Program-made: the position numbers and the translations under genes | Shown: piece after piece, positions 2,053-4,719 of the stretch | How positions within the stretch are numbered: the stretch's first letter is position 1 | Layout: the number at the start of each line of letters is the position of its first letter | Notes under the pieces: model-generated | Told to the model about the DNA's origin: nothing | Seen by the model: only the letters and a program-made list of their open reading frames with translations | Databases searched by the model: none | IMG/VR virus record: IMGVR_UViG_2778261151_000015 | From: a virus | Taxonomy: Duplodnaviria; Heunggongvirae; Uroviricota; Caudoviricetes | Length of the DNA stretch: 4,719 nucleotides | Reading direction: 5' to 3' (one strand)

Positions 2053-2175
2053 TTATCCCCATCGACAAATCGAGTACACAACAAACGCTACTGCGAATAC
2101 CATCCCCAGAGTTACGATTGCATCAGGCCAGCTCATTGATTCACCTCCTGCGGCGTCCTGGTATTCGATTTTCAT
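2053..2175 (-). CDS. Small hydrophobic membrane peptide (40 aa from ATG 2175; alternative 27-aa start at ATG 2136)
   Basis: Hand-translated: MKIEYQDAAGGESMSWPDAIVTLGMVFAVAFVVYSICRWG. ATG at 2175-2173 overlaps the TGA of the clamp-like gene (ATGA). The internal ATG at 2136 has a near-consensus SD (AGGAGGT, 6-nt spacer). One predicted TM helix (AIVTLGMVFAVAFVVYSI). Confidence 0.45.
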   Translation of the reverse strand: MKIEYQDAAGGESMSWPDAIVTLGMVFAVAFVVYSICRWG

Positions 2176-2741
2176 TCCGGATGCTCCTGAGCCACGTTGA
2201 AATCGCCATGATCACGACAAGGCATCACAACAAATTCAGGATTGCCATACATTGAGTTGATGATGGAATCAAACTGAATTCTGACCGCTTGCCCGTCACC
2301 GGAGGGACGTAACTGGACGGGAATAAATTTACGCTCACGACCAAACATCTTCTCTGGATAACTCAGGTAACCCGCCTGGAGCACCGGGTGAGTACAGCGG
2401 TCAAACTTTTTCGGAATGATGCGATCCAAATCCGGAAAACAACCGTCCACCAGTTTAATGCCGGTAATGGACAGTCGTCGCTGAAACTGGTCGCGATGAA
2501 CAGCGATCGGCTCTTTACTAAAAATCAGCTCTGTCGTTTCGGCTTTGGCCGGGACGCCCCCTTCGAACTGGACAATGATGTTTTTCTTCGTCCGGATGCC
2601 GTGAGCCATGCGCAGTGCCACGGAACCATTGGTTGCCTCAATATGTTTCGGCGTGATGTGAAGACCGTTCAGGTAATAACGAACGTCGTTTTTAGCAGCG
2701 CACACCAGAGCGGCGCGAATAAGTTTTGACTGGATGATCAT
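2172..2741 (-). CDS. DnaN-like protein: truncated DNA polymerase III beta sliding-clamp homologue (189 aa)
   Basis: Motifs match E. coli DnaN domains II-III as I recall them: DVRYYLNGLHI (DnaN DVRYYLNGMLF), KLVDGCFPDLDRIIPKK (DnaN KLVDGRFPDYRRVLPKN), C-terminal EFVVMPCR (DnaN AYVVMPMRL). About half the length of DnaN (366 aa). ATG at 2741-2739 overlaps the stop of the upstream gene; SD GGGAGG 7 nt upstream. Confidence 0.75.
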   Translation of the reverse strand: MIIQSKLIRAALVCAAKNDVRYYLNGLHITPKHIEATNGSVALRMAHGIRTKKNIIVQFEGGVPAKAETTELIFSKEPIAVHRDQFQRRLSITGIKLVDGCFPDLDRIIPKKFDRCTHPVLQAGYLSYPEKMFGRERKFIPVQLRPSGDGQAVRIQFDSIINSMYGNPEFVVMPCRDHGDFNVAQEHPE

Positions 2742-3530: not shown

Positions 3531-4361
3531 TTACTTAACCTGAATAAATGGTGTGTTGGCACCGCTGGTCATGTACTGCGGCAGTGTGCCGTTCCATTTA
3601 TTGATGGCTTCCAGCTCCATAACACCGGGGTTCTGGCGCAGAGCTTCACCGCGTAAACGAATTGCATCGGCTTCGGCCTGGGCTTTTGTGCGAATCGCAT
3701 CAGCCTGTCCGGCAGCTTCTGCACGCAGCATGTTGGCTTCTGCTTCGCGTTGTTTAACTTCCTGCTCGCGTTGCAGTGTTTTCTGGTTTGCCGTGACTTT
3801 GGCGTTAATGCTGTCGATAACGGTTGGTGGGTACTCTGGCTTACCCACATATGAGAGGCTCATTACCTGAATACCGATGGGTGTCATTTCTTCCTGGATG
3901 TCTTTTAGAGCGGCATCCAGTAATTCAGATTTACCGCCGTCAATAAATTTGTCGGTGGTCATTTTGCTGGCCAGCCGATTGAGTGCGTCGGCGATCTTCT
4001 GGCGCAGGTCTGTATCGGTAATGTCATCCACGCCTTTGCGGTAGGTCTGAAATACCGTGGTAACTTTCGATGGATCAACCTTATAGGCCACGCCGATGTG
4101 ATAACCGATGGTTGTGCCGTCGCTCATCTGGAAGCTGAATGGATCATCGTAGATCTTCATTTGTTTGAAGGTCGGGAAAATGTAAACTTCAGTATTCCAG
4201 CCAGTCCAGTAGCGACCAACACCGACCACCTCACCGACACCTTTGTCGTCGCCCAGTTTGTTGACTTTGATACCCACATTACCTGGTTCAACGCGATCGC
4301 AACCTACAAGTCCGAAGACAGCCAGACTGACCGCGAAAACAAGCGCAATTGTTTTTTTCAT
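3531..4361 (-). CDS. SPFH (band 7 / prohibitin / flotillin-like) domain lipoprotein
   Basis: 276-aa ORF. N-terminal lipoprotein signal with lipobox (MKKTIALVFAVSLAVFGLVG|C). Central SPFH-like region followed by a Glu/Ala-rich coiled-coil (REQEVKQREAEANMLRAEAAGQADAIRTKAQAEADAIRLRGEA) typical of HflK/HflC/flotillin-type proteins. ATG at 4361-4359 overlaps the TGA of the upstream small ORF (ATGA). Confidence 0.8.
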   Translation of the reverse strand: MKKTIALVFAVSLAVFGLVGCDRVEPGNVGIKVNKLGDDKGVGEVVGVGRYWTGWNTEVYIFPTFKQMKIYDDPFSFQMSDGTTIGYHIGVAYKVDPSKVTTVFQTYRKGVDDITDTDLRQKIADALNRLASKMTTDKFIDGGKSELLDAALKDIQEEMTPIGIQVMSLSYVGKPEYPPTVIDSINAKVTANQKTLQREQEVKQREAEANMLRAEAAGQADAIRTKAQAEADAIRLRGEALRQNPGVMELEAINKWNGTLPQYMTSGANTPFIQVK

Positions 4362-4546
4362 TTTTCCCTCCCGGGGAAAGAAAGACCCTTATAAATGGCA
4401 TAAATGCAGGGCGGGGTCAGACACGCCAGAGCAAAGCCAGAAATCACTGCTACCGTATCCTTCATTGATATGAGGGCCGGAACGATTAATCCGTAAATAC
4501 ATGCGATAATTGCCAGTGATATAACTATTCTGAAATAAATGTTCAT
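4358..4546 (-). CDS. Small two-TM membrane protein (62 aa), partner of the SPFH lipoprotein
   Basis: Two hydrophobic helices (FRIVISLAIIACIYGLIVPALIS and VAVISGFALACLTPPCIYAIY) separated by a short polar loop. SD AGGAGG just upstream of the ATG at 4546-4544. Stop overlaps the SPFH start. Confidence 0.6.
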   Translation of the reverse strand: MNIYFRIVISLAIIACIYGLIVPALISMKDTVAVISGFALACLTPPCIYAIYKGLSFPGREK

Positions 4547-4572
4547 GGTCCTCCTGATGTATTCGGCTTGCC

Positions 4573-4595
4573 GGTAATGACTCCAACTTACTGAT
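4573..4595. repeat. IS1 terminal inverted repeat (IRR)
   Basis: GGTAATGACTCCAACTTACTGAT matches the ~23-bp IS1 right inverted repeat with one substitution relative to the K-12 copy as recalled. Confidence 0.8.
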
Positions 4596-4719
4596 AGTGT
4601 TTTATGTTCAGATAATGCCCGATGACCTTGTCATGCAGCTCCACCGATTTTGAGAACGACAGTGACTTCCGTCCCAGCCTTGCCAGATGTTGTCTCAGAT
4701 TCAGATTATGTCGCTCAAT
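4588..4719 (-). CDS. insB: IS1 transposase InsB, C-terminal fragment (partial; 5' end outside window)
   Basis: Minus-strand translation from the window edge gives [43 protein letters not shown], matching the known InsB C-terminus. Stop TAA at 4590-4588, immediately inside the IRR. Confidence 0.8.

What the first reader, a model, noticed from the sequence alone, without database searches (positions are those of the whole stretch)
3531..4546. Two-gene membrane module (2-TM micro-protein plus SPFH/flotillin-like lipoprotein) as prophage cargo: candidate exclusion/defence system
A 62-aa two-TM protein is translationally coupled (ATGA overlap at 4358-4361) to a 276-aa lipoprotein with an SPFH domain and an EA-rich coiled-coil. 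The pair sits in the accessory part of the early-left operon of an integrase-bearing element, a position where lambdoid phages typically carry superinfection-exclusion and abortive-infection cargo. SPFH proteins form membrane scaffolds, often with a small membrane partner (NfeD-type); a lipid-anchored version with a 62-aa partner and no associated protease is not a module I can match to a characterised defence system. Functional role is inference from context.
Basis: partly seen in the sequence, partly recalled or inferred. Interest (0 to 1): 0.75.

Follow-up and report, generated by a model that had tools for sequence, protein, structure and literature searches.

The report
Phage SPFH lipoprotein with two-helix partner
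The two genes are real and are a conserved pair, a lipid-anchored SPFH (flotillin/HflK-like) scaffold protein and a small two-helix membrane partner, but the pair is common in lytic phages and in ordinary bacterial chromosomes, so nothing here marks it as a prophage defence system and its function is still unknown.

Summary
Observation confirmed. A 62-aa two-TM ORF (4358-4546, minus) overlaps by ATGA a 276-aa lipoprotein (3531-4361) with a Band_7/SPFH domain (Pfam 6e-31), a 65-residue helix, and the fold of prohibitin, HflK/C, erlin and stomatin.

The pairing is not chance. The partner lies directly upstream or is fused in about 90% of 56 non-redundant loci. At least 19 of 150 distant representatives are in-frame fusions. 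The small ORF is under purifying selection (pN/pS 0.30 in frame, about 1.0-1.2 off frame).

The defence reading is not supported:
- PADLOC gives no hit.
- The pair matches the N4 gp19/gp20 annotation and sits among early genes of virulent phages.
- It also occurs in non-phage chromosomal loci in Leptospira and Dyella.
- No promoter or terminator of its own was found.

In this window an IS1 end lies 26 nt upstream of the small ORF and cuts the pair off from the early-left operon.

Most likely it is a split SPFH scaffold on the periplasmic face of the inner membrane (Asp at +2), with the 2-TM protein as a 1:1 membrane subunit. Its role in infection is unknown. Superinfection exclusion remains possible but untested. 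I found no functional study.

The parts
4358..4546 (-). 62-aa two-TM partner protein (PHROG 1130 'membrane protein'). Conserved loop motif: P23-x-L-I-S27, then G37 in TM2.
   Evidence: ORF. phrog_1130 E 1.9e-23. No Pfam, NCBIfam or PADLOC hit. pN/pS 0.30 in frame. Homologues upstream of, or fused to, SPFH genes.
4550..4555 (-). AGGAGG ribosome-binding site, 3 nt upstream of the small ORF's ATG.
   Evidence: Read directly from the sequence. Retained between the IS1 end and the ATG, and identical in the uninterrupted relative.
4358..4361 (-). ATGA stop/start overlap (translational coupling).
   Evidence: Sequence. Overlaps or gaps of only a few nt occur in P88, P1-like, phiP27 and Moo19.
3531..4361 (-). 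276-aa SPFH/Band 7 lipoprotein (PHROG 200 'lipoprotein'; annotated as similar to N4 gp20).
   Evidence: Pfam Band_7 6.2e-31. phrog_200 3e-114. AF2 pLDDT 85. Foldseek hits to prohibitin, HflK/C, erlin and stomatin at E 1e-14 to 1e-11.
4299..4361 (-). Lipoprotein signal peptide (MKKTIALVFAVSLAVFGLVGC) with lipobox LVGC21. The next residue is Asp (+2), the inner-membrane retention signal.
   Evidence: Sequence. Cys is invariant in alignments A3 and A4. Asp at +2 in 99 of 103 close homologues.
3735..4295 (-). SPFH domain (residues 23-209).
   Evidence: Pfam envelope. Beta-sheet plus helices in the AF2 model.
3600..3827 (-). Long EA-rich helix (residues 179-243) plus a short helix (245-254). This is the wall-forming coiled-coil element of SPFH cages.
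   Evidence: AF2 secondary structure. Aligned to the HflK coiled-coil region 180-306.
4573..4719 (-). IS1 end (InsB C-terminus, stop codon and terminal inverted repeat GGTAATGACTCCAACTTA). It is not part of the module but cuts it off from its native upstream genes.
   Evidence: Sequence. Homology to the uninterrupted prophage stops at 4572. IS1 family transposase in more than 5000 plasmid records.

Best explanation
The two genes encode a two-component SPFH membrane scaffold.

Shown:
- The 276-aa protein has a lipoprotein signal, an SPFH domain, a 65-residue helix and a short C-terminal tail. This is the layout of cage-forming SPFH proteins such as HflK/C, prohibitin, stomatin, erlin and QmcA.
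- Asp at +2 predicts that it stays in the inner membrane, facing the periplasm.
- The 62-aa protein is a conserved and frequently fused partner.

Inferred:
- The lipoprotein oligomerises through its long helix into a ring or dome on the periplasmic face of the inner membrane.
- The 62-aa hairpin (N-in, C-in, short periplasmic loop P-x-L-I-S) sits 1:1 beside each lipid anchor. It supplies the transmembrane ring that HflK/C provide with their own N-terminal helix. The pair would then be a 'split' transmembrane SPFH protein.
- The assembly fences off a patch of inner membrane and whatever host or phage membrane protein is inside it.

In phages the pair is transcribed with early genes. It therefore most likely acts during lytic development, organising or insulating the inner membrane, and not as a lysogen-expressed immunity gene. 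The enclosed client and the benefit to the phage are unknown. In this window the pair is separated from its operon by IS1 and could only be expressed by read-through from the IS.
For: - SPFH domain and fold. The closest solved sequence is HflK.
- Lipobox and Asp+2.
- Partner directly upstream in lambdoid, P2-like, P1-like, N4-like and rV5-like phages.
- Among 56 non-redundant loci, the partner HMM hits upstream on the same strand, or fused, in 36. Only one hit lies elsewhere among 34,369 ORF fragments.
- 15 of the 19 HMM-negative loci still have a 2-TM ORF directly upstream or an N-terminal multi-TM fusion.
- At least 19 of 150 50%-identity representatives are in-frame fusions: 2-TM module with the same motif, then a basic linker, TM3 and SPFH.
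- The fusion model places TM1 at 2-27, TM2 at 32-54 and TM3 at 59-70 ahead of the SPFH domain. This topology puts SPFH in the periplasm, as the lipoprotein signal predicts.
- Purifying selection on the small ORF.
- Early-gene context in virulent phages.
- No own promoter or terminator.
- Cellular, syntenic copies in Leptospira and Dyella point to a generic membrane function.
Against: - No oligomer was modelled or observed. Cage formation is extrapolated from the fold.
- The +2 residue varies outside Enterobacterales (T, S, G and others), so inner-membrane retention is not universal by that rule.
- Some phages (phiEa21-4) and a few genome loci (L105, L134, L141) lack a recognisable partner.
- Expression timing is inferred from gene position and a weak consensus scan, not from transcript data.
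- No functional study of any member was found.
Confidence: 0.55

Rival explanations
1. Superinfection exclusion or anti-phage defence. The periplasmic SPFH assembly blocks genome entry of incoming phages across the inner membrane, or triggers abortive infection.
For: - It is an early-expressed membrane lipoprotein, as are known exclusion proteins. T5 Llp and T4 Imm/Sp are examples from my own knowledge.
- In Moo19 it lies next to a gene annotated 'superinfection exclusion'.
- It is an accessory, horizontally mobile cassette. It is present in about 10% of complete E. coli genomes and shared at 87-90% DNA identity between lambdoid, P2-like and P1-like phages.
- Virulent phages also encode exclusion genes, so presence in them is compatible.
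Against: - No PADLOC hit at E<=1.
- No literature link between SPFH proteins and defence.
- Syntenic non-phage chromosomal copies occur in Leptospira and Dyella.
- No own promoter or terminator in the intact prophage, so expression in the lysogen is doubtful.
Confidence: 0.2
2. HflK/C mimic. The phage SPFH protein joins or competes with the host HflK/C-FtsH complex, which also faces the periplasm. This would alter FtsH proteolysis, for example of CII/CIII-type regulators or membrane proteins, and so change the lysis-lysogeny decision or host takeover.
For: - HflK is the closest solved relative by sequence, and both expose SPFH to the periplasm.
- Annotators of several phages have proposed this.
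Against: - Scores are far below the HflK and HflC equivalog cut-offs: 22.6 against 159 bits and 25 against 134 bits.
- The pair is common in strictly virulent phages that make no lysogeny decision.
- It has its own dedicated partner instead of a second SPFH paralogue.
Confidence: 0.12
3. Lysogenic-conversion or virulence lipoprotein. The protein acts on the animal host, for example as a TLR2 agonist released in vesicles, as reported for the prophage-encoded HflK/C-like PM0222 of Pasteurella multocida.
For: - PMC9872710 reports such an activity for a prophage SPFH protein.
- Stx phages and a Shigella/EPEC-type prophage carry the pair.
Against: - Homology of PM0222 to this family was not tested here.
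- Any triacylated lipoprotein stimulates TLR1/2.
- The pair occurs in phages of environmental and plant bacteria and in free-living bacteria.
- This reading does not explain the conserved 2-TM partner.
Confidence: 0.05

Closest known systems
Coliphage N4 gp19/gp20 and their N4-like homologues (for example Shigella virus Moo19 gp30/gp31); PHROG 1130 plus PHROG 200
   Same: The same two families in the same order with overlapping genes. Moo19 gp31 is 64-65% identical to the window protein, and gp30 carries the P-x-x-V-S...G motif. The PHROG hits are 3e-114 and 1.9e-23.
   Different: Those are in virulent phages among early/middle genes, whereas this copy is in a lambdoid prophage next to int/xis. 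Neither has a known function. The link to N4 itself rests on the record's annotation note, not on an alignment made here.
E. coli HflK/HflC-FtsH complex
   Same: SPFH domain followed by a long helix. Periplasm-facing and anchored in the inner membrane. Closest solved sequence (E 2e-4) and a top structural match.
   Different: HflK/C are two SPFH paralogues, each with its own N-terminal TM helix. Here there is one SPFH protein, lipid-anchored, plus a separate 2-TM protein. Equivalog scores are far below cut-off. No FtsH link is shown.
SPFH-NfeD operons (QmcA-YbbJ, YqiK-YqiJ, archaeal stomatin-STOPP)
   Same: An SPFH gene is coupled to a small membrane-protein gene. In the QmcA-YbbJ structure (8z5g, listed) the partner belongs to the assembly.
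   Different: The partner here is 62 aa with no room for the NfeD OB-fold domain, and it has no NfeD Pfam hit. QmcA faces the cytoplasm (established knowledge). This protein is predicted to be periplasmic and lipid-anchored.
Early-expressed phage exclusion proteins of the envelope (T5 Llp lipoprotein, T4 Imm/Sp, P22 SieA)
   Same: Small, early, envelope-located phage proteins. This is a resemblance from my own knowledge only.
   Different: No sequence or family relationship was detected: PHROG and PADLOC give no exclusion or defence label. None of those proteins has an SPFH domain.

Membership tests
SPFH / Band 7 superfamily | Band_7 (PF01145) domain above the gathering threshold | tested here: met
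   108.2 bits against a 23.6-bit cut-off, E 6.2e-31, residues 23-209.
SPFH / Band 7 superfamily | Alpha/beta SPFH fold followed by a long coiled-coil helix, as in cage-forming members | tested here: met
   AF2 pLDDT 85 with helix 179-243. Foldseek prob 1.0 to prohibitin, HflK/C, erlin, stomatin, flotillin and QmcA.
SPFH / Band 7 superfamily | Assembly into a large membrane-attached ring or cage | not testable with these tools
   Only monomer models could be made.
Bacterial lipoprotein retained in the inner membrane | Signal peptide with a lipobox [LVI][ASTVI][GAS]C, and Asp at +2 | tested here: met
   MKK-hydrophobic-LVGC21-D22. Cys is invariant. Asp at +2 in 99 of 103 close homologues. Processing and localisation are not tested experimentally.
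HflK / HflC (FtsH modulators) | Score above the NCBIfam equivalog cut-offs | tested here: not met
   TIGR01933 (HflK) 22.6 against 159.4 bits. TIGR01932 (HflC) 25.1 against 134.4 bits.
HflK / HflC (FtsH modulators) | Two adjacent SPFH paralogues, each with an N-terminal TM anchor | tested here: not met
   There is a single SPFH gene with a lipobox. The neighbour is a 62-aa 2-TM protein.
SPFH-NfeD operon | Partner protein with an NfeD-type C-terminal OB-fold domain | tested here: not met
   No Pfam hit for the 62-aa protein or for 14 family members. No PDB relative, including YbbJ. Two TM helices fill the whole length.
Known anti-phage defence systems (PADLOC-DB v2.0.0) | Match to any defence-system protein model | tested here: not met
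   0 families at E<=1 for both proteins and for three neighbouring proteins. DefenseFinder and newer models were not available.
Phage moron (autonomous lysogenic-conversion cassette) | Own promoter upstream and terminator downstream | tested here: inconclusive
   In the intact relative L001 no sigma-70-like site and no minus-strand terminator-like site flank the pair. The scan is a crude consensus search.
PHROG 200 / PHROG 1130 phage gene pair (annotated as N4 gp20/gp19-like) | Both proteins match the PHROG profiles, and the small gene lies immediately upstream on the same strand | tested here: met
   3e-114 and 1.9e-23. Adjacency or fusion in about 90% of 56 non-redundant loci.

The most novel reading that the evidence does not exclude
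Phages of many lineages build their own periplasmic SPFH cage on the host inner membrane, from a lipoprotein plus a dedicated 2-TM subunit. They use it early in infection to seal off a membrane patch. This would either block genome entry by competing phages or hold a host membrane protein (a protease or channel) out of action. It would be the first functional phage-encoded SPFH compartment and a new partner class for SPFH proteins, distinct from NfeD.
Probability: 0.2. Interest if true: 0.75.

Novelty: new variant of a known kind. Interest (0 to 1): 0.42.

Why it matters
SPFH cages (HflK/C, prohibitin, stomatin, flotillin, erlin) are now understood structurally, but bacterial SPFH biology is still thin. 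The only recognised partner classes are a second SPFH paralogue or NfeD.

This family is large. The representative library holds 223 50%-identity clusters at E<1e-30, and 385 phage records carry it. It is lipid-anchored and predicted to be periplasmic. It has a third kind of partner, a 60-80-aa hairpin that is fused to the SPFH protein in some lineages.

Unrelated virulent and temperate phages keep the pair among their early genes. That implies a general, unrecognised membrane step in infection. N4-like phages and E. coli prophages make it directly testable.

For this particular window the practical message is smaller. The module is an already annotated phage gene pair, cut off from its operon by IS1, and it should not be listed as a defence system on present evidence.

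Tried and rejected
- **NfeD-like partner.** Rejected. No Pfam or PDB similarity, and no room for an OB fold.
- **Known defence system.** Rejected for PADLOC v2.
- **HflK/HflC orthology.** Rejected on equivalog cut-offs.
- **'Serine protease' label.** Many phage records use it. No protease domain was found, only Band_7. A weak 'protease' PHROG hit (0.0014) covers only the coiled coil.
- **Autonomous moron.** No promoter or terminator consensus.
- **Small ORF as an artefact of an overlapping frame.** The 65-66-aa alternative-frame ORF was picked up by my first script's longest-ORF rule. It was rejected by pN/pS and by conservation of the 2-TM frame across divergent phages.
- **Purely prophage-associated cargo.** Rejected by the phage tblastn search and by the chromosomal Leptospira and Dyella contexts.
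- **Technical failure.** A locus search with the 27-sequence alignment failed because it was too diverse. It was repeated with 7 sequences.
- **Literature.** They found only annotation-level mentions and one Pasteurella virulence study. No functional work on N4 gp19/gp20 or on phage SPFH proteins turned up.

Full report
**1. What is in the window**

The window is the left arm of a lambdoid prophage, all on the minus strand:
- integrase, 75-1361
- DUF1233 excisionase, 1395-1649
- a DUF4222 protein
- a 189-aa protein
- an ORF6N/antirepressor-like protein
- the two genes of the finding

A 98.7% identical, uninterrupted copy lies in E. coli CFSAN029787 beside mlrA (yehV). There PGAP annotates both genes, as 'SPFH domain-containing protein' and a 62-aa 'hypothetical protein'.

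The 62-aa ORF (4358-4546) and the 276-aa ORF (3531-4361) share ATGA at 4358-4361, and an AGGAGG lies 3 nt before the first ATG.

From 4573 to the end of the window the sequence is an IS1 end: the InsB C-terminus, its stop codon and the terminal repeat GGTAATGACTCCAACTTA. It lies 26 nt upstream of the small ORF. Homology to the intact prophage stops exactly at 4572. The pair is therefore detached from the rest of the leftward operon in this strain. Because IS1 points toward the pair, read-through from the IS is the only obvious source of transcription. This is an inference.

**2. The proteins**

*The 276-aa protein*
- It has a Band_7/SPFH domain at residues 23-209 (E 6.2e-31).
- It gives only weak, sub-threshold similarity to HflC and HflK. 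HflK is the only solved relative by sequence (E 2e-4).
- The AlphaFold model (mean pLDDT 85) shows a signal helix, an alpha/beta SPFH domain, one continuous helix at 179-243, a short helix, and a low-confidence tail.
- Foldseek places it with the cage-forming SPFH proteins: prohibitin, HflK/C, erlin, stomatin, flotillin and QmcA (E 1e-14 to 1e-8).
- The N-terminus is a classical lipoprotein signal (MKK, hydrophobic core, LVGC21). The Cys is invariant in the family alignments.
- Asp follows the Cys in 99 of 103 close homologues. By the established +2 rule for E. coli lipoproteins, Asp retains the protein in the inner membrane, so the SPFH domain should face the periplasm.

*The 62-aa protein*
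- It has two hydrophobic segments, basic termini and a short loop.
- It has no Pfam, NCBIfam, PADLOC or PDB relative.
- It matches PHROG 1130 'membrane protein' (1.9e-23).
- Over 21 natural alleles its frame shows pN/pS 0.30, against 1.04 and 1.24 in the other frames. It is a real, constrained gene.

**3. The pairing is real and old**

The same arrangement occurs across unrelated phage types:
- phiP27 (62 aa)
- the P2-like phage P88 (67 aa, annotated 'membrane protein')
- P1-like phage-plasmids (78 aa)
- the N4-like Shigella phage Moo19 (66 aa)
- the rV5-like phage SSE121, with one small gene inserted between the two

.

The partners are only 16-38% identical. They share a Tyr in TM1, the motif P-x-(L/M)-(I/V)-S at the end of TM1, and a Gly in TM2.

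An exhaustive search of 1.84 billion cluster representatives found 2997 relatives of the SPFH protein, 223 of them at E<1e-30. At least 19 of the best 150 are 320-390-aa in-frame fusions. Their N-terminus is the 2-TM module with the same motif, followed by a basic linker, a third hydrophobic helix ending in the conserved Cys, and then the SPFH domain. A model of one fusion (pLDDT 83) gives TM1 at 2-27, TM2 at 32-54 and TM3 at 59-70. This topology puts the SPFH domain outside the cytoplasm, which agrees with the lipoprotein signal of the split version.

I built an HMM from 25 partner sequences and searched all six-frame ORF fragments of 256 fetched loci (34,369 fragments). Among 56 non-redundant (90%) SPFH loci:
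- The partner was directly upstream on the same strand in 32.
- It was fused in 1.
- It was upstream within 1 kb in 3.
- It was elsewhere in 1.
- It was undetected in 19.

Of those 19, 15 still have a 2-TM small ORF immediately upstream or an N-terminal multi-TM extension with a degenerate form of the motif. Pairing is thus about 90%. Clear exceptions are phiEa21-4 and a few genome loci (L105, L134, L141).

**4. Where the pair lives**

tblastn finds the SPFH protein in 385 phage records.

Many belong to virulent lineages:
- Schitoviridae. Moo19 gp30/gp31 are annotated as similar to N4 gp19/gp20 and lie between the RNA polymerase genes and the replication genes.
- Vequintavirinae.
- Ounavirinae.
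- 45-kb Pseudomonas podophages.
- phiCbK-like, crAss-like and Lak phages. Their lifestyle is from my own knowledge.

Temperate carriers include Stx phages, phiP27, P88, and P1-like and about 110-kb phage-plasmids.

In complete E. coli genomes, 571 of 5426 have a DNA-level match: 418 places on chromosomes and 241 on plasmids.

Outside phages, six Leptospira species carry the pair at one syntenic site beside succinate dehydrogenase genes. Dyella and other Lysobacterales carry it among aldo-keto reductase, TetR, cupin and lipocalin genes. The module is therefore a general bacterial membrane device that many phages also encode.

**5. Interpretation**

The data support a split SPFH scaffold. The lipoprotein would form the periplasmic wall and roof, as its solved relatives do. 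The hairpin, present 1:1 (as the fusions imply), would form the transmembrane rim.

In the intact relative no promoter-like or minus-strand terminator-like site flanks the pair. In virulent phages it sits among early genes. Together these point to action during lytic development and not in the resting lysogen.

What the scaffold encloses is unknown. I could not find any functional study. Papers that mention phage SPFH genes only speculate. One study reports inflammatory activity of a prophage HflK/C-like protein of Pasteurella, whose relation to this family I did not test.

**6. The defence hypothesis**

It is not supported:
- There are no PADLOC hits.
- No literature links SPFH proteins to defence.
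- The distribution is dominated by phage early regions and includes stable chromosomal loci.

It is not refuted either, because exclusion of secondary infection is a plausible early membrane function. I give it about 0.2. An HflK/C-mimic role gets about 0.12, because virulent phages have no lysogeny decision to tune and the similarity to HflK/C is remote.

**7. Verdict**

The 'prophage defence cargo' label is not warranted. The module is a known, annotated but uncharacterised phage and bacterial gene pair. It is best described as a new variant of the SPFH scaffold theme: lipid-anchored, periplasmic, with a non-NfeD hairpin partner. Interest is moderate.

Noticed in passing
window 4573-4719: An IS1 end (InsB C-terminus plus terminal inverted repeat) is inserted 26 nt upstream of the small ORF, pointing toward it. 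It truncates the prophage early-left operon. The 99% protein match named Shigella boydii and the IS1 load suggest a Shigella-type genome.
   Followed up: yes
L089 4213-4990 (Shigella flexneri SFBU1023); a similar spacing is seen in L090: A second, independent IS1 insertion lies between the 2-TM gene and the SPFH gene of the homologous prophage, separating the pair by about 790 nt.
   Followed up: partly
window 2172-2741 (-): The 189-aa early-left protein shows weak similarity to the sliding clamp DnaN (TIGR00663 1.2e-4, Pfam DNA_pol3_beta_2 0.007, phrog_947 2e-4). Its best PHROG (3007) is labelled 'RusA-like resolvase'. It may be a half-size clamp-like protein, and the PHROG label looks doubtful.
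   Followed up: no
window 3531-3562: The apparent 32-nt overlap between the SPFH gene's 3' end and the ORF6N gene comes from the longest-ORF rule (GTG at 3562). PGAP starts the homologue at the ATG giving MNTVTINN... (a 750-nt gene), which leaves a 44-nt gap.
   Followed up: partly
L003 and L004 compared with window 4296-4546: Between lambdoid, P2-like and P1-like phages the mature SPFH region keeps 87-92% identity. The signal peptide and the partner gene diverge beyond DNA alignment (partners 16-21% identical). This suggests either a recombination boundary at the lipobox or faster co-evolution of the membrane-embedded parts.
   Followed up: partly
L093 (Yersinia pestis NCTC5923, 108-kb contig) and about 105-111-kb contigs among the hits: The pair is carried on plasmid-sized contigs of Y. 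pestis, Kluyvera, Klebsiella and E. coli. These look like phage-plasmids (my inference from their size and from matches to P1-like phage records).
   Followed up: no
L117 5832-6302 (+) and the syntenic Leptospira loci: A 156-aa ORF with no Pfam hit directly follows the SPFH gene. It is conserved with the pair in several Leptospira species and may be a third component of the cellular version.
   Followed up: no
phage records: Many GenBank phage records label this protein 'serine protease' or 'putative serine protease'. No protease domain is detectable, so the label appears to be a propagated annotation error.
   Followed up: partly
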